A stretch of DNA of 64,000 nt, from positions 149,695 through 213,694 of the forward strand of contig JACKLD010000012.1 in NCBI GenBank assembly GCA_024236095.1, in the 5' to 3' direction. How positions within the stretch are numbered: the first letter of the stretch is position 1; each line of letters starts with the position of its first letter. A program made the position numbers. The DNA comes from Pseudomonadaceae bacterium (GTDB lineage Bacteria > Pseudomonadota > Alphaproteobacteria > UBA2136 > UBA6156). Positions 1 through 6,000 of this stretch are shown here, one piece after another.

Positions 1-3000
1 ACGGCGGCTGACGGACAGCTGGAATCCAATTCCCAAAGTTGCATGTTCCCATGCAAGAAAAAGCCCTAAATTGCGCGGTGTTCATCCTTCTGTACATCAA
101 ACACATCCGCCGGTACAGGAAGTCCGAATTCGGCAAAGACCCGCCGGTAGTGGCTGCGTGCAAGCCCCGGAATAACGCTGACAATCCTGTGGCGTATATC
201 ACCCCTCGCGTTATCTGTGGCAAATCCACGCACATCCAGGCACCCACTCAAAAGCGTATATCCATTCGCAATCTCAACCGTTGCTTGCCGCACGTTGTAC
301 CCCAACCCACGCTCCGGATGCCGTGAATGATGTCCTTCCGTCCGCCTCTTGATCATTCCCTCAAGTTGCCTGTAACGGAAAGCCACAAAAGGGCTTAGAA
401 GTGTTTTGAGAGCTCTTTCAGAAACATCCTTCACGTCGGGTTCCCCGTATAATAGAAGCTCCATACCCATACCGGAAACCTCAACATCACGGTACTTATG
501 TCCCAAAAGCAACGCCGCCGTATGACGTTCCAGCAAAATGCCCAAACGCTTCTCCTGTGCGGTCGCCGCTTCCGGCAAAAAGACATTCAAACGTAGTTCC
601 ATAATTTCGTATACATAACTTACCTTATCGCTGGCAAGCAAATTATCACCCCCATTGACCCCACCTCCACAACCTGTAACCTGTGCCCATGTGCGGAATT
701 ACCGGAATCGTCGGGCAGCAGAAGGTCGACAAGGCGCTGCTCGCCCGCATGCGCGATGCCATGCGCCATCGCGGGCCGGATGGCGGCGGCCTCTGGCTCA
801 ACAAGGCGGGTACGGTCGGGCTGGCCCACCGCCGTCTCAGCATTGTGGATTTGAGCACCGCCGCCGACCAACCGATGGTCAGCCCCGATGGCCAACATGC
901 ACTGGTGTTCAACGGTGAAATCTACAACCACGCGCAGGTCCGCCGCCAACTGGAAGCCGAAGGCGTCACCGGCTGGCAAACAAGCCACTCCGATACCGAA
1001 GTCATCCTGCAAGCCTACCGCCATTGGGGCATGCCCGCCTGCCTGAAACACCTGCGCGGCATGTTCGCCTTTGCCCTGTGGGACGCCGACCAAGGCACCC
1101 TTTTCGCCGCCCGCGACCGCGCGGGTGAAAAGCCATTCTATTACACAAATCATAACAATTGCTTTTATTTCGCAAGTGAAATTAAAGCATTACTTGAAGA
1201 TAAAACCCTCCCCCGCGCGGTGGATGAGGAGGCCCTGTTCGACTACCTCAGCCTGTTGATGACCCCTGCCCCGCGCACCCTCTTTGCCGGCATCGGCAAA
1301 CTGCCCGCCGCCCACTGGCTGGCTTATACCCCCGCCGACGGCACCCTCACCACCCAACGCTACTGGGACCCTCTGGATGAAGCTGCCGCCCACCAAGGCC
1401 CGCAACACGGTGATGACGCAGCATGGGCCGCCCACCTCAAACCCATCCTCACCGACGCCGTGCGCCTGCGGCAGGAAAGCGCCGACGTGCCGGTGGGCTG
1501 CTTCCTCTCCGGAGGCATCGATTCCTCCGCCGTTGCCACACTGGTCAGCGGCCACACCGGCAGCGGCAAGCTGCACACCTTTGCCATCGGGCCGGATGGC
1601 ACGTACCCCAGCTGGCCGGACGAAACCCCCTACGCCGAAAAGGTGGCCAAGCGCATCGGCAGCCACCACACCACCACCCGCCTCACCGAAGCCGAAGTGC
1701 TCGCCTTTTTGCCCACTTTCATCCACGTGCAGGATGAACCGGTGGCCGACCCCGCCGCCATTCCCATCTATTTTCTCAGCAAAGCCGCCACCGATGCCGG
1801 GCTAAAGGTCTGCCAAGGCGGCGAAGGCAGTGACGAACTGTTTGTCGGCTACGAAGACTGGCTGAAATTCGCCAAACTCACCCGCTGGAACCATCTCCCC
1901 ATCCCGCGCATCTTCAAGAAGCTCGGCTACGCACTGTTGCTCAAATTCGGCCACGGCCCACGCTTTTACGCCGAATACCTGCGCCGCGCCGCCGCTGGCC
2001 AACCCATCTTCTGGGGCGGGGCAGAAGCCTTCACCGACTGGGAAAAACGCCGCCTGCTGGCCAAACCACCCACCCGCACCACCTGGGAGGTCATCGCCCC
2101 CATCTGGCAACGCTTCAACACCAAACCCGCCCGCCAGCGCCACTTCTGGAACTGGTGCAGCTTTCTGGAACTGCACACCCGCCTGCCGGAACAGCTGCTG
2201 ATGCGCGCCGACAAAACCAGCATGGCCACCGCGCTGGAACTGCGCATCCCGCTGCTCGACCACCACCTCATCGCCGCCACGCTGGCCAGCCCCGAGGCCG
2301 TACGCGTGCCAAACGGCGACAAGAAACACCTGCTCAAATCCATGCTCAAGGGCCTGCTGCCCGATGACATCCTCTACCGCAAAAAACAGGGCCTCAAAGT
2401 CCCGTTCGAAGAGTGGATTGTCTCGTCCTACGGCGCCTATGCCCGCCGCGAACTTGAAGAATTTTGCACCACCACGCCCTACCTCAACTGGAGCTATGTA
2501 CAAACGCTGTTCGAAGCCGGGCGCGGCCAGCATATCTGGTATCTGCTCAACCTCGCCCTGTGGCACAAACACTTCATCGCACAAAAGCCGCTCACCCCGT
2601 TCGGGTTGGAAAGCTAGCCCGTCTTTGCTAGCCTTTTGTCAAAACAAAAGGACACGCCATGGCCTCCGGTGAACTCATCCTCTCCCCCGTTGAAAAGAAG
2701 CTCGCCGAGCCGCTGCTCAACTGGCTGGTACCGGAGCGGATTACCGGCAAAAAAGAATTGGTCATCAACCACCCCGGCGAAATCGGTCTTGAAAGCTACG
2801 AAGGCACGTGGGAATTCCACAAGGAGCCGCTACTCACCCTCGACGCCCTCACCGGCATCATGAACCTGCTGGCCGACCGCACCAACCAGACCTACAACAT
2901 GGCCAACCCGATTCTCAGCGTGAAGCTGCCGGGCGGCCATCGCGCCCAGTTCGTGGCGGGCCAGCAAAACGCCCAGAAATTTAGCCTCTGCGTACGCCTC

Positions 3001-6000
3001 GCCAACGAGCGCGAATTCACACTGGAAAGCTACGTCATGGAGCCGGAACAACGGAACGACCTCGTCAACGCCGTCCAAACCCGCAACACCGTGCTTATCT
3101 CCGGCGGTACCGGTACCGGGAAAACCAGCTTCATGAACGCACTGATGAAGTACATCCCCATGGAAGACCGGCTGGTGATTCTGGAAGACGTGCCCGAACT
3201 GCGCTTTAATCAAAACAACGTGGTGCACTTCCTCTTCGCCAACTTCGCCAAGGGGCAAGAAGGCGGCCGCGTGGCGGCGGTGAATGAACTGCTGAACGCC
3301 ACCCTGCGTATGCGCCCCGACCGCATCATCATGGGTGAAATCCGCAAGGAGAATGCCTTTACCTTCTGTTCGGCCATCAACACCGGCCACCAAGGCAGCA
3401 TGGCCACGGTGCACGCCAACACGCCGGAAGGCGCCATCGACGCCGTCATCAACCGCGTGATGCTCAACGGCGATACCACCGAAAGCGCCCTGCAAATCCT
3501 CCAACGCCAATTGGCGGGAGACATCGCGGGCGTGGTGCAGCTGGAACGCGTCGGCCCCAAAGTCCACGCCCGCTGGAAACGCTTCGACCAGAAACCGGTT
3601 TAACGTCCAAGGCTTCTTCCAATAATATCCGCCACACTCCCCTGCAAACTCTCTGGCTCCGGCTTTACTTCCTTCTTAGAAGACACTTGCTTCTGCCGCC
3701 GCTCTGCCTTAAGCGGCTTGTCGCGGTCACTCTCTCTGCACCCGTCGTTGGCCATATCGGAACAGTATTTGCCACGCCACACCTTTTCACCTGTCGGCAC
3801 CATCACCCGAATTCCCGCATCGTTCACCGGAGGGTTTTCCCGATACACCACCGGCTGCACCTCAGGCCGCGCTTCGACTGCATCGACCTCCGGTCCACGG
3901 GGCTCCTTTTTAGGATTGAAAGCAAACGTCGGAACAGCCCTCGTCTTCTCACGCAAGACATCCCCCGCCAACTTCGCCGAAAGAGGATTCCCCATGAACT
4001 TGGCCAATGCCGTCGGTTCTTGCATGCGGGGCTTCGCAACATCCTTGTTACACTGGGAAAGAAGCGAGGATGCCGCAACCAAAACCGTCCCTGCCGCCAA
4101 AATCTTTCCCCACAAAACTCCCGCCCGCCGCAGGATCTTTTTTTCTTCGATCCTGTTTTCAAGAAGCTCCTCGGGGGCTTCTTCATCCAGCCCCTGAAAC
4201 CCAGACGGCGCCACCATCGGCTCCACGGGCACATCTTCCGTCGGCGCAATCGACGACCCGGCCTGAAGCTTCGCGAGACGCGCTTCATCTTCTGCCGTCA
4301 AACACCCTTCCGCCACATCATGAAACTCCCCGCCTCCCTGCAAACGGGCAATCTCGGCGGCTGTCTGGCGGCGCATCTCTTCCGCCGTCAAAGTAACGGG
4401 CATGTGGGTCCCAGCTTCAGCCATGGGCCGGACCGCAGGCAACGGTGGAGGCACAAGCCTCTCAGCCTTTTTTACATAAGGTTTGCGGTGGTTGGAAGAT
4501 TTGATCGCCATGGGAAGGATATGGTCCTTTTGTTCATAATTTCAAGGCTACGATTCACCACGCCCGCCGCCCCGCGCAGGGTTTCTTACCGGCTTGGGCA
4601 TCGCAATGCGCGACTCGGCAAAATACACATGACCATCGTAACGACGGTTGGGCTCCAAAACCTCTCCGTTCTCGCCAAGCCAATCCAACCGCCCCATCAT
4701 GTCGGCCAACCAAGGCGGAAGCGTTTTGATCTTAGACGGATTGGCATAGTTCAACGTATCCGCAGGCAACCGCTTGCGCACCTCCTGCACCAGCAGCATG
4801 TCATTTTCATCCGCCAAGCCGCTCTCCACGGCTTTCGCCCCAAAACGCCCGACCGCCGCCAACGCCATGGCACGGTGCATCACCTCCATACTCGGCAGAT
4901 GCCCCATCTCTTGCGGAATCTTCGTGGCAAAGTCATGCTCTCCCCAACAACTGAAACGGGCGAACGCCAACGTCGCCTCCATCCCGCCACCACTGTTGTC
5001 CAGCACACGGTTCACTCCCGCCATGGTCTTCAGACCATGCTTGGCCACTTCGCCACCCGCTTCGGCGTACAACGTCAATCCCTGGCTCAAGACATCCAGC
5101 TTTTCCACATCCTTCAAGCCACCAAAAGCAGCCAACCGCTCGGGCGGAAGCACCAACAGCGCCACCCGCTCAGGGTCAGCCAGCCACGTCATGTTCTTCG
5201 TCTGTTGTTCAGCCAGCCGGCGATGTGTGGAGAACAGGCGCTTCCGCCTTTCCATCATGGCCAACGTCTCTTTCAACCTCACAAATTGTGCGTCCATCAA
5301 TTGCCGCACATCCAACACGGGCGCCTGACGCTCCTGCTCGATTCTGGCCAGATTTTCACGGTACAACCGCTCCAAAAAGGCCATCCCGTTGCGGTATTCC
5401 TGTGCCGAAACCGCCCGCTCCTCCATCTGCGGCGCCGGTGGAAGCTTGCCAAAAGCAGAGGTCAGCACGGTAAACGCTGCAAACGCCCCCATCAGGTGGT
5501 TGGCAATGTTGCTCGCTCGTCCAAGACGCGCAGACGGCGCAAACTTCTTCTTGCTCATGCCCCCTTATGAGCAGCCACACAAATCCGGCCAAACACCCAA
5601 CCTCAGGCGTTCAAAGCCCGCCCCTCACTGTCCAACACGCTCTCCATAATCATTTCAGAGAGCGTCGGGTGCGGCAGACACGCATGGAAGAAATCCTCCT
5701 CCACCGCCTCCACATGCTTGCCCAACACAAAGGTGGCAATCATTTCGGTGGCCTCGGCGCCGATGATATGCGCCCCAAGCAACTCACCGGTTTTCGCATC
5801 AAAAATGGTCTTCACCATGCCGCCCGGCTCGCCCAACGCCTGCGCCTTGCCGTTGGCTTGGTATTGGTAACGCCCTACCTTTACCTGCCTGCCTTTGGCC
5901 TTGGCGGCGGCCTCGCTCATGCCGGTGCTGGCCACCTGCGGCGTGCAGTAGGTACAGCCGGGAATATTCCCGTAATCCATCGGATGCGGCTTGGCGGTCT

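What the first reader, a model, noticed from the sequence alone, without database searches (positions are those of the whole stretch)
2659..5558. Orphan VirB11/TrbB-type ATPase with two unannotatable neighbours
A complete secretion-NTPase gene (2659-3603) follows asnB with a 41-bp gap and a good RBS, but no VirB/Trb/Tad/T2SS partner is nearby. The next two genes on the opposite strand (3600-4511, with a central TM segment and Pro/Glu-rich linker; 4548-5558) have no recognisable motifs. This is either a relic of a degraded conjugative element or a minimal ATPase-driven membrane system with unknown partners.
Basis: partly seen in the sequence, partly recalled or inferred. Interest (0 to 1): 0.5.

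Follow-up and report, generated by a model that had tools for sequence, protein, structure and literature searches.

The report
Stand-alone VirB11-like ATPase, unrelated neighbours
The flagged ATPase is an intact, strongly conserved secretion-motor gene from a stand-alone chromosomal branch of the VirB11 family found in uncultured Alphaproteobacteria, while the two unannotatable genes next to it belong to the pyruvate-dehydrogenase gene string on the other strand and are not its partners.

Summary
Genes at 2659-3603 (+), 3600-4511 (-) and 4548-5558 (-) are real. The first is a full-length VirB11-like ATPase with all four nucleotide-binding motifs intact. No VirB, Trb, Tad or T2SS gene lies anywhere in the 64 kb window.

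- **Not a relic.** The ATPase belongs to a monophyletic clade (96% bootstrap) with 50-90% identity across dozens of uncultured alphaproteobacterial MAGs. dN/dS against its nearest relatives is about 0.09. Every context examined is housekeeping, and at least seven MAGs carry two copies.
- **Not a three-gene module.** ORF2 and ORF3 never accompany the ATPase elsewhere. ORF3 has only two detectable relatives among 1.84 billion representative proteins. Both relatives lie directly after lpd (E2-NUDIX-lpd-ORF3-ORF2), the same order as on the window's minus strand, and one of them has no ATPase beside it. The juxtaposition is a tail-to-tail accident.

**Most likely mechanism (inferred):** a hexameric motor serving an envelope machine encoded elsewhere, as shown for H. 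pylori ComB11/HP1421. Which machine it serves could not be tested.

**Verdict:** a new variant of a known kind, of moderate interest.

The parts
683..2617 (+). asnB-like glutamine-hydrolysing amidotransferase. It lies directly upstream of the ATPase on the same strand and keeps that position in the closest relatives.
   Evidence: PF00733, PF13537 and TIGR01536 at 452 bits. tblastn finds it immediately upstream of the ATPase in L001, L006/7, L008, L009/10, L011 and L021.
2618..2658 (+). 41-bp spacer between asnB and the ATPase, carrying the ribosome-binding site AAGGA and a weak stem-loop.
   Evidence: Sequence read. The terminator-like hit at 2613-2632 is within the chance expectation.
2659..3603 (+). 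Stand-alone VirB11-like hexameric traffic ATPase, 314 aa.
   Evidence: PF00437 at 4e-30. TIGR02788 VirB11 scores 210.9 bits, below its cutoff of 249.95. Brucella VirB11 2gza matches both the N- and C-terminal domains at 2e-33. Identity to plasmid VirB11 is 35-39%. The clade is monophyletic at 96% bootstrap. dN/dS is about 0.09.
3103..3129 (+). Walker A motif GGTGTGKTS, residues 149-157.
   Evidence: Read from the translation. The motif is conserved across the 38 family members; only the variable fifth residue differs.
3313..3345 (+). Walker B region RPDRIIMGEIR, residues 219-229. The Asp box LEDVPEL lies at residues 175-181.
   Evidence: Invariant or nearly invariant in the 38-sequence alignment. 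Aligned to the equivalent motifs of 2gza and CpaF.
3382..3420 (+). His box TGHQGSMATVHAN, residues 242-254.
   Evidence: Invariant or nearly invariant in the family alignment. Aligned to the His box of 2gza and CpaF.
3600..4511 (-). ORF2: bitopic membrane protein rich in Ala, Glu and Pro, 303 aa (NCBI calls a 267-aa version). It is the last gene of the lpd-ORF3-ORF2 string and is convergent with the ATPase. The two stop codons share the tetranucleotide TTAA.
   Evidence: Only a self hit among 5.8 billion proteins. Codon log-likelihood is +102 bits. Positional equivalents in L045 and L046 are only weakly similar. Stop-codon overlap read.
4059..4118 (-). Single predicted transmembrane segment of ORF2, residues 132-151 (VLWGKILAAGTVLVAASSLL).
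   Evidence: Kyte-Doolittle 19-residue window maximum of 1.66.
4548..5558 (-). ORF3: fast-evolving protein, 336 aa, with a hydrophobic N-terminus. It lies 44 bp after lpd. Its conserved C-terminal domain may be endolysin-like.
   Evidence: Only two relatives among 1.84 billion representatives: P0123 (39% identity, 3e-29) and P0124 (32%, 2e-23). Both lie directly downstream of lpd. P0124 and P0123 hit phrog_938 endolysin at 2e-4 and 0.04, but ORF3 itself does not. Codon log-likelihood is +157 bits.
5603..6988 (-). lpd (dihydrolipoamide dehydrogenase). This is the conserved upstream neighbour of ORF3-ORF2, within the string E2 (7559-8797), NUDIX (6985-7557), lpd, ORF3, ORF2.
   Evidence: L046 encodes E2 (76% identity), NUDIX (71%), lpd (86%), an ORF3 homologue (34%) and a 337-aa protein, in the same order. 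The 3' end of lpd in L045 is 89% identical in nucleotides to the window.
3687..5570 (+). 627-aa ORF spanning ORF2 and ORF3 on the opposite strand. It is an antisense artefact, not a gene.
   Evidence: Codon log-likelihood of -241 bits. Its GC1/GC3 pattern mirrors the minus-strand genes.

Best explanation
**Shown**
- The gene at 2659-3603 encodes an intact VirB11-type traffic ATPase, homologous over its full length (N-terminal domain plus RecA-like C-terminal domain).
- It belongs to a distinct, slowly evolving, vertically inherited chromosomal clade found in uncultured Alphaproteobacteria.
- The clade is always encoded alone among housekeeping genes, and often in two paralogous copies per genome.
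- In the window's sub-lineage the gene sits behind a GT2-asnB pair and is probably co-transcribed with asnB.
- ORF3 and ORF2 are not part of it. They are a hypervariable pair of envelope proteins that follows lpd at the end of the pyruvate-dehydrogenase string. A rearrangement has placed them tail-to-tail against the ATPase.

**Inferred**
- Like other VirB11-family proteins, it forms a cytoplasmic hexamer that docks on the inner-membrane base of an envelope-spanning machine and uses ATP hydrolysis to drive assembly or substrate transfer.
- The rest of that machine is encoded elsewhere in the genome. The precedent is H. pylori ComB11/HP1421, a VirB11-family ATPase that sits in a housekeeping operon far from the comB loci and works through ComB4.
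For: **Family assignment**
- PF00437 at 4e-30. The best NCBIfam model is VirB11 at 211 bits, ahead of TrbB at 144 and TadA-type at 144.
- Both domains align to Brucella VirB11 2gza.
- All 25 best plasmid hits are annotated virB11, at 35-39% identity over 91-94% of the protein.

**Integrity and selection**
- There are 79 invariant positions among 38 family members, including the Walker A, Asp box, Walker B and His box motifs.
- dN/dS is 0.087 and 0.096 against the two nearest relatives.

**Distinct clade**
- In a neighbour-joining tree with 200 bootstraps, the stand-alone proteins are monophyletic at 96%.
- TrbB and CpaF fall outside VirB11 plus the stand-alone clade at 81%.

**Stand-alone status**
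- Nine independent neighbourhoods at 50-90% identity contain only housekeeping genes.
- All eight proteobacterial plasmid VirB11 references fetched sit beside VirB10, and six of them also beside a VirD4-type coupling protein.
- Pfam hits across the window show no partner.
- Two copies occur in at least seven MAGs.

**Neighbours unrelated**
- ORF2 and ORF3 are absent from all 44 related loci.
- ORF3 relatives follow lpd in L045 and L046. L046 has no ATPase on its 6 kb contig.

**Precedent**
- HP1421/ComB11 is described in PMC13395361.
Against: - No partner machine was seen. Only 64 kb of a contig of about 506 kb, and +/-10 kb of related genomes, could be read, so 'partners elsewhere' is an assumption.
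- The VirB11 equivalog model scores below its trusted cutoff.
- Clustering with virB10 and virD4, the context seen for all eight proteobacterial plasmid virB11 genes fetched here, is absent.
- Two conserved paralogues per genome are not typical of T4SS loci.
- If this lineage is related to Micavibrio (not established), the published genome of that genus reports no type IV secretion system (PMC3189940). That would argue against a T4SS partner.
- ATPase activity and hexamer formation are inferred from motifs only.
Confidence: 0.6

Rival explanations
1. T4SS-independent or accessory motor. The clade has been recruited to another machine, for example as a PilT/PilU-like extra motor for Tad, type IV pilus or T2SS systems whose genes are dispersed, or to an undescribed envelope process.
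For: - The gene is always encoded alone, in two conserved paralogues per genome, which recalls pilT/pilU.
- It scores below the VirB11 equivalog cutoff.
- CpaF scores almost as well as VirB11 in the PDB search: 4e-30 against 2e-33.
- The clade evolves far more slowly than the plasmid VirB11 references: at least 50% identity within the clade, against a mean of 39% among the references.
- A prepilin peptidase lies about 10 kb upstream in L001.
- Micavibrio is reported to lack a T4SS but to have dispersed pil and flp genes. Its relevance is unproven.
Against: - The whole protein, N-terminal domain included, is closest to VirB11 by HMM, by tblastn and by tree.
- No pilus or T2SS gene is adjacent in any of the nine contexts.
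- No case of a VirB11-clade protein driving a type IV pilus-like filament is known to me (own knowledge).
Confidence: 0.25
2. Functional link to surface-polysaccharide synthesis. The ATPase works with the upstream GT2 glycosyltransferase and asnB-like amidotransferase, for example to energise export or modification of a glycan.
For: - GT2-(small ORF)-asnB-ATPase is conserved, with gaps from overlapping to 181 bp, in six distinct relatives at 68-90% identity.
- A different sub-lineage (L002) has DUF481, GT4 and Wzy_C genes just downstream.
- One database protein, P0082, is called as an ATPase-DUF481 fusion.
Against: - Sister genomes at about 70% identity (L012, L013, L015-L018, L020, L022) lack GT2-asnB. 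There the ATPase abuts a divergent glutaredoxin gene.
- The other sub-clade has quite different neighbours.
- No secretion-superfamily ATPase is known to act in glycan synthesis (own knowledge).
Confidence: 0.08
3. The first reader's module: the ATPase, ORF2 (membrane protein) and ORF3 form a minimal ATPase-driven membrane system.
For: - The three genes are physically adjacent. The ATPase and ORF2 stop codons overlap.
- ORF2 is a membrane protein.
- Relatives of ORF3 show a weak endolysin-like signal. This could recall the cell-wall hydrolases that accompany secretion systems.
Against: - The genes are convergent, so they are not co-transcribed.
- ORF2 and ORF3 are absent next to every one of more than 40 related ATPase genes, including the 90%-identical one, which is followed by an EAL-domain gene instead.
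- ORF3-ORF2 follow lpd in three genomes, and in L046 they do so without the ATPase.
Confidence: 0.03
4. Relic of a degraded conjugative or integrative element.
For: It is a lone virB11-like gene with no other T4SS genes in 64 kb, flanked on one side by two genes with almost no detectable relatives.
Against: - dN/dS is about 0.09 and all catalytic motifs are invariant.
- The gene lies in a conserved position within housekeeping synteny across many genomes.
- The clade is monophyletic and slowly evolving, distinct from plasmid VirB11.
- No integrase, tRNA gene, repeat boundary or compositional break is present.
Confidence: 0.03

Closest known systems
VirB11 of P-type (VirB/D4) type IV secretion systems, e.g. 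Brucella suis VirB11 (PDB 2gza) and plasmid VirB11 of Sphingomonas, Agrobacterium and Sinorhizobium
   Same: - Same two-domain architecture and similar length.
- Walker A, Asp box, Walker B and His box are all present.
- It is the best HMM, PDB and tblastn match.
- It groups with VirB11 rather than with TrbB or CpaF.
   Different: - Identity is only 24-39%, and the score is below the TIGR02788 trusted cutoff.
- It forms its own clade at 96% bootstrap.
- It is never next to virB10 or virD4, whereas all eight proteobacterial plasmid references sit beside virB10.
- It is chromosomal, vertically inherited and slowly evolving, often with two paralogues.
ComB11 / HP1421 of Helicobacter pylori (PMC13395361)
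   Same: A VirB11-family ATPase that is a core gene, encoded in a housekeeping operon far from the rest of its machine. This is the same genomic logic as proposed here.
   Different: - It comes from a different phylum, and no specific sequence relationship was tested.
- For ComB11 the partner (ComB4) and the function (DNA uptake) are demonstrated. Here no partner is known.
TrbB (P-type conjugative transfer ATPase, e.g. pTiC58)
   Same: Same superfamily, size and motifs. Identity is about 30-33%.
   Different: TIGR02782 scores 144 bits against a cutoff of 304.55. TrbB falls outside the VirB11 plus stand-alone group in the tree. It is encoded within trb operons.
CpaF/TadA of Tad pili
   Same: The ATPase core is homologous: PDB 8rkd at 4e-30 over residues 68-297. 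NCBI labels the window protein 'TadA'.
   Different: CpaF is 420-500 aa with an extra N-terminal region and sits in tad/cpa loci. Only the core aligns. It is the outgroup in the tree. TIGR03819 scores 144 bits against a cutoff of 373.
PilT/PilU retraction ATPases
   Same: They are typically encoded away from the pilus assembly genes and occur as paralogue pairs (own knowledge). This resembles the stand-alone, two-copy pattern seen here.
   Different: Sequence relationship is much more distant: TIGR01420 at 53 bits and PDB PilT at about 4e-8.

Membership tests
T2SSE / secretion-superfamily ATPases (PF00437) | Pfam model score above the gathering threshold | tested here: met
   105 bits against a cutoff of 24.9, E = 4.4e-30.
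T2SSE / secretion-superfamily ATPases (PF00437) | Walker A, Asp box, Walker B and His box motifs intact | tested here: met
   GGTGTGKTS, LEDVPEL, RPDRIIMGEIR and TGHQGSMATVHAN are present. They are invariant or nearly invariant across 38 relatives.
VirB11 (TIGR02788, P-type DNA transfer ATPase, equivalog) | HMM score at or above the curated cutoff | tested here: not met
   210.9 bits against a cutoff of 249.95. It is still the best-scoring model.
VirB11 | Homology over both the N-terminal and C-terminal domains to a solved VirB11 | tested here: met
   In 2gza, residues 17-127 align to 27-134 and residues 135-286 align to 168-319.
VirB11 | Branches with VirB11 to the exclusion of TrbB and CpaF | tested here: inconclusive
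   In a bootstrapped neighbour-joining tree, VirB11 plus the stand-alone clade excludes TrbB at 81%. Whether the clade is nested within VirB11 or is its sister is unresolved (31% at the relevant node). Only 12 references were used.
VirB11 | Encoded within a T4SS locus (virB10 upstream, coupling protein or other virB genes adjacent) | tested here: not met
   None in the 64 kb window or in nine related neighbourhoods. All eight proteobacterial plasmid references do have this context.
VirB11 | Other T4SS core genes (VirB4, VirB6, VirB8-10) present elsewhere in the same genome | not testable with these tools
   Only the window and +/-10 kb flanks of relatives are readable. The source MAG is not in the genome collection: the best hit there was 82% identical.
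VirB11 | Hexameric ATPase activity and interaction with VirB4 or the inner-membrane complex | not testable with these tools
   Needs biochemistry.
TrbB (TIGR02782) | HMM score at or above the cutoff, and a trb operon context | tested here: not met
   144 bits against a cutoff of 304.55. No trb genes are present.
CpaF/TadA (Tad pilus ATPase) | Extended N-terminal region, tad/cpa locus context and a family HMM score | tested here: not met
   The protein is 314 aa against 420-500 aa for CpaF, and only residues 68-297 align. TIGR03819 scores 143.7 bits against a cutoff of 373. No tad genes are in the window.
SleB/CwlJ-type cell-wall hydrolase (Pfam Hydrolase_2), considered for ORF3 | Match to the family model or to a solved SleB structure | tested here: not met
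   No Pfam hit even at E <= 10 for ORF3, P0123 or P0124. The family profile found nothing in the PDB.
Phage endolysin family phrog_938, considered for ORF3 | Significant HMM match of the conserved C-terminal domain | tested here: inconclusive
   P0124 scores 2.3e-4 and the C-terminal domain of P0123 scores 0.039, both on the same profile region (positions 55-181). ORF3 itself has no hit.

The most novel reading that the evidence does not exclude
The stand-alone clade, with two conserved paralogues per genome, all among housekeeping genes and evolving far more slowly than plasmid VirB11, is not a T4SS subunit at all. It would be a VirB11-derived motor recruited to a core, lineage-wide cellular process in small-genome, possibly predatory or host-associated Alphaproteobacteria that lack any type IV secretion system.
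Probability: 0.15. Interest if true: 0.65.

Novelty: new variant of a known kind. Interest (0 to 1): 0.35.

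Why it matters
VirB11-family ATPases are normally read as markers of a type IV secretion or conjugation locus. This case shows a whole chromosomal clade that is encoded alone, is under strong constraint and is often duplicated. Automated labels such as 'TadA', 'VirB11' or 'T4SS present' are therefore unsafe for these genomes.

If a dispersed T4SS exists in these bacteria, the clade extends the ComB11 precedent to Alphaproteobacteria. If none exists, it points to a new job for a VirB11-like motor.

The case also shows that adjacency to genes with almost no detectable relatives can be a rearrangement accident. 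Here the two 'partners' belong to the neighbouring operon.

Tried and rejected
The single-sequence run gave pLDDT 40.5 and the three-sequence alignment gave pLDDT 46.4. A Foldseek search of the PDB with the better model gave nothing at E <= 0.001. Neither model is usable.
2. **ORF3 as a SleB-type cell-wall hydrolase.** From memory, the conserved C-terminal motifs of ORF3 (T[LV][YF]xEAxGE, AxVNRxxDN, FSCW, YxNxxK..PxW, H.FYD) looked like that family. Pfam, an ORF3-family profile searched against the PDB, and hhalign did not support this. Only a weak endolysin signal in two relatives remains.
3. **ORF2 and ORF3 searched against defence (PADLOC) and phage (PHROGs) libraries.** There were no hits for the window proteins. 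The ATPase gave only generic P-loop hits.
4. **Promoter and terminator scan of 1-7200.** Counts equal the chance expectation, so it was not used.
5. **Rfam and tRNA scans of the window.** Both found nothing, so there is no integration-site signal.
6. **Order-level taxonomy.** It could not be settled. Record names are generic or evidently wrong ('Pseudomonadaceae bacterium', 'Pseudomonas fluorescens', 'Blastochloris viridis'). A link to Micavibrionales is only a guess.
7. **Literature searches.** Searches for an orphan or stand-alone VirB11 in Alphaproteobacteria, and for 'UCP018868' (a Pfam family, PF27713, listed for some relatives), found nothing relevant apart from the ComB11 paper.
8. **Conserved neighbours of the second sub-clade.** There are none beyond gatCAB-ruvX in three loci.

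Full report
**1. The observation**

The three ORFs are present exactly as described. asnB (683-2617; PF00733 and TIGR01536) ends 41 bp before the ATPase start codon. An AAGGA ribosome-binding site precedes that start.

The ATPase (2659-3603, 314 aa) matches PF00437 at 4e-30. Its best NCBIfam model is VirB11 TIGR02788 at 210.9 bits, below the cutoff of 249.95. TrbB and the TadA-type model score 144 bits each.

In the PDB, both its N-terminal and C-terminal domains align to Brucella VirB11 (2gza, 2e-33). CpaF aligns only over the ATPase core (4e-30).

ORF2 (3600-4511, minus strand) and ORF3 (4548-5558, minus strand) have no hit in Pfam, NCBIfam, PADLOC or PHROGs. ORF2 has one hydrophobic segment (residues 132-151) and an Ala/Glu/Pro-rich composition.

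A 627-aa ORF covers both genes on the plus strand, so I tested which strand is coding.
- I trained a codon log-likelihood, sense against codon-aligned antisense, on 32 confident genes of the window.
- It gives +102 bits for ORF2, +157 bits for ORF3 and -241 bits for the plus-strand ORF.
- The two minus-strand genes are therefore real and the long plus-strand ORF is their shadow.

**2. No partner in the window**

I ran Pfam on the likely coding ORFs over about 120 aa across the 64 kb. The window contains:
- the PDH genes (E1 alpha, E1 beta, E2, lpd), interleaved with NUDIX and GDSL genes;
- a Lap-type T1SS adhesin locus;
- rpsF-rpsR-rplI, holC, pepA, lptF/G, lptD, surA and ksgA;
- assorted housekeeping genes and the nuo operon.

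There is no VirB, Trb, Tad, T2SS or type IV pilus gene, and no second ATPase copy. There are no tRNA genes and no Rfam hits. Base composition does not shift around the locus.

**3. The ATPase belongs to a conserved stand-alone clade**

A search of 5.8 billion proteins returned the identical protein from an NCBI MAG, on a contig of 505,967 bp. It also returned more than 100 relatives at 50-90% identity, nearly all from uncultured Alphaproteobacteria MAGs. A scan of GTDB species genomes gave 33 loci.

I examined nine independent neighbourhoods with precomputed Pfam labels. All are housekeeping:

| Locus (identity to the window ATPase) | Gene order around the ATPase |
|---|---|
| L008 (80%) | rpsU, methyltransferase, glutaredoxin, GT2, 158-aa ORF, asnB, ATPase, variable genes, photolyase, ruvX, gatCAB, secE, nusG |
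| L002 (65%) | ApaG, ATPase, DUF481, GT4, Wzy_C |
| L043 (51%) | ffh, ftsY, other genes, ATPase, trxB, lepB, rnc, era |
| L059 (53%) | lptC, lptA, lptB, rpoN, hpf, ATPase, other genes, ahcY |
| L060 (51%) | pckA, ATPase, further housekeeping genes |

By contrast, all eight proteobacterial plasmid virB11 genes I fetched lie beside virB10. Six of them also lie beside a VirD4-type coupling-protein gene.

All-against-all clustering of ORFs from 39 loci found no conserved neighbour other than housekeeping genes.

At least seven MAGs carry two copies on different contigs or at different positions. Examples are JADCGN01 (L011 and L032), QFOU01 (L018 and L034), WGLU01 (L027 and L040) and WGMN01 (L021 and L044).

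**4. The gene is intact and constrained**

In an alignment of 38 family members, 79 positions are invariant. They include the conserved residues of these motifs:
- Walker A: GGTGTGKTS
- Asp box: LEDVPEL
- Walker B: RPDRIIMGEIR
- His box: TGHQGSMATVHAN

Nei-Gojobori dN/dS against the two nearest relatives is 0.087 and 0.096.

**5. Phylogenetic placement**

tblastn against 72,556 plasmids gave only annotated virB11 genes among the best 25 hits, at 35-39% identity. TrbB and CpaF appear further down the ranking.

I built a neighbour-joining tree from 293 alignment columns with 200 bootstraps. References were eight proteobacterial plasmid VirB11, a Campylobacter VirB11-like protein, two TrbB and one CpaF. 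The results were:
- The stand-alone proteins are monophyletic at 96%.
- VirB11 plus the stand-alone clade excludes TrbB at 81%.
- Two sub-clades are weakly supported (69% and 59%). Mean identity is 53% between them and 31-32% to VirB11.
- Branches within the clade are short compared with those among plasmid VirB11 references (mean 39% identity).

Whether the clade is nested within VirB11 or is its sister is unresolved.

**6. The two neighbours belong to the other operon**

In the k-mer-seeded search, ORF2 and ORF3 found only themselves. Neither occurs in any of the 44 loci around related ATPases. In the 90%-identical relative the ATPase is followed by an EAL-domain gene.

A full HMMER pass of ORF3 over 1.84 billion representative proteins found two real relatives: P0123 (39% identity, 3e-29) and P0124 (32%, 2e-23). 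Their contigs show where the pair belongs.

| Contig | Gene order | Identity to the window |
|---|---|---|
| L046 | E2, NUDIX, lpd, ORF3 homologue, 337-aa protein | E2 76%, NUDIX 71%, lpd 86%, ORF3 34% |
| L045 | 3' end of lpd, small EamA-like ORF, ORF3 homologue, 279-aa protein | lpd 3' end 89% in nucleotides |

- The L046 order is the same as on the window's minus strand (7559-8797, 6985-7557, 5603-6988, 4548-5558, 3600-4511). No ATPase follows on that contig.
- In L045 the lpd stretch translates to 39 amino acids identical to the window's.

The positional equivalents of ORF2 share only a hydrophobic segment and a few short motifs.

Intergenic gaps in the window are 44 bp (lpd to ORF3) and 36 bp (ORF3 to ORF2). 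This suggests read-through from the PDH genes, which is an inference.

The pair therefore evolves far faster than its flanks. Its tail-to-tail contact with the ATPase, where the two stop codons share TTAA, is a local rearrangement and not a functional unit.

**7. What ORF3 might be**

Its conserved C-terminal motifs reminded me of SleB-type cell-wall hydrolases. Pfam, a family profile searched against the PDB, and hhalign did not support that.

Two relatives match the same region of the PHROGs endolysin family phrog_938 (2e-4 and 0.04), but ORF3 itself does not.

AlphaFold models were too poor to use (pLDDT 40 and 46), and the fold search returned nothing.

The best guess, held weakly, is a membrane-anchored periplasmic protein with a peptidoglycan-hydrolase-like domain, followed by a disordered bitopic membrane protein.

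**8. Mechanism**

Shown:
- The gene is an intact VirB11-like ATPase under purifying selection.
- It is encoded alone.
- It belongs to a distinct clade.
- Its two neighbours are unrelated to it.

Inferred from what is known of the VirB11 family:
- It forms a cytoplasmic hexamer that docks on an inner-membrane complex and powers assembly or transfer.
- Its partners are encoded elsewhere.

The closest precedent is H. pylori HP1421/ComB11. This is a VirB11-family core gene in an operon with fliI, ileS and murB, far from the comB loci, and it acts through ComB4 (PMC13395361).

The main rival is a T4SS-independent or accessory-motor role. It is suggested by the two-paralogue, always-alone, slow-evolving pattern. 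It would also fit the reported absence of a T4SS in Micavibrio (PMC3189940), if the lineage is related to that genus, which I could not establish.

A link to the upstream GT2-asnB pair is conserved in only one sub-lineage.

**9. Novelty and verdict**

I found no paper describing stand-alone VirB11-like genes in Alphaproteobacteria.

The protein is a new variant of a known kind: VirB11-like in sequence, but it fails the equivalog cutoff and lacks the T4SS-locus context.

Interest is moderate. The decisive test is a whole-genome survey for T4SS, Tad, type IV pilus and T2SS components in the MAGs that carry the clade, which these tools could not run.

Noticed in passing
window 13089-25099: A Lap-type adhesin secretion module. 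It consists of an HD_5 (HD-GYP-like) protein (13089-14861, minus strand), a LapG-like BTLCP cysteine protease (14867-15502, minus), a HlyD-family protein (15506-16996, minus), an ABC exporter (16997-19282, minus), a TolC-like OEP (19370-20761, plus) and a 1405-aa adhesin with about 10 Big_9/cadherin-like repeats (20882-25099, plus). The 1907-aa ORF at 19400-25123 on the minus strand is only its antisense shadow.
   Followed up: partly
window 1-64000: GC skew is uniformly and strongly negative on the plus strand, from -0.08 to -0.26 in every 4-kb block, whatever the orientation of the genes. This is stronger than the replication-strand skew usually seen in bacteria (own knowledge).
   Followed up: no
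window 3600-5558; L045:581-2590; L046:3417-5483: The ORF3-ORF2 pair after lpd is hypervariable. lpd is 86% identical in amino acids to L046, and its 3' end is 89% identical in nucleotides to L045, but ORF3 is only 34-39% identical. ORF2 equivalents are barely alignable. This could reflect diversifying selection or cassette-like replacement of envelope proteins.
   Followed up: partly
window 5603-12940: The pyruvate-dehydrogenase genes (E1 alpha 11864-12940, E1 beta 10295-11296, E2 7559-8797, lpd 5603-6988) are interleaved with unrelated genes: two NUDIX-like genes (6985-7557, 8807-9421), a GDSL lipase (9696-10358) and ORFs with no Pfam hit (9298-9705, 11283-11885). The NUDIX gene between E2 and lpd is conserved in L046.
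   Followed up: partly
window 50150-50668 and 56812-57186: Two low-GC ORFs lie inside the nuo operon (GC3 of 0.35, against 0.75-0.82 in neighbouring genes). The first has no Pfam hit. They may be insertions into the complex I operon.
   Followed up: no
L011/L032, L018/L034, L027/L040, L029/L033, L021/L044, L017/L042, L028/L041: At least seven MAGs carry two paralogous stand-alone VirB11-like genes, about 50-58% identical to each other's clades. Each sits among housekeeping genes. Whether the window's own genome has a second copy is unknown.
   Followed up: partly
P0082; L002:10001-11923: In one sub-lineage the ATPase is immediately followed by a DUF481 gene (a predicted outer-membrane protein). 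One database entry (548 aa) is called as an ATPase-DUF481 fusion. This is either a real fusion or a gene-calling artefact.
   Followed up: no
window 3600-3603: The convergent ATPase and ORF2 genes end on the same palindromic TTAA, so their stop codons overlap. That leaves no room for a terminator between them.
   Followed up: yes
Public labels for this lineage are unreliable. The source MAG is named 'Pseudomonadaceae bacterium'. Relatives are named 'Pseudomonas fluorescens' and 'Blastochloris viridis'. ORF2 is named 'cell division FtsA domain-containing protein' and the ATPase 'TadA', and nothing found here supports any of these labels.
   Followed up: partly
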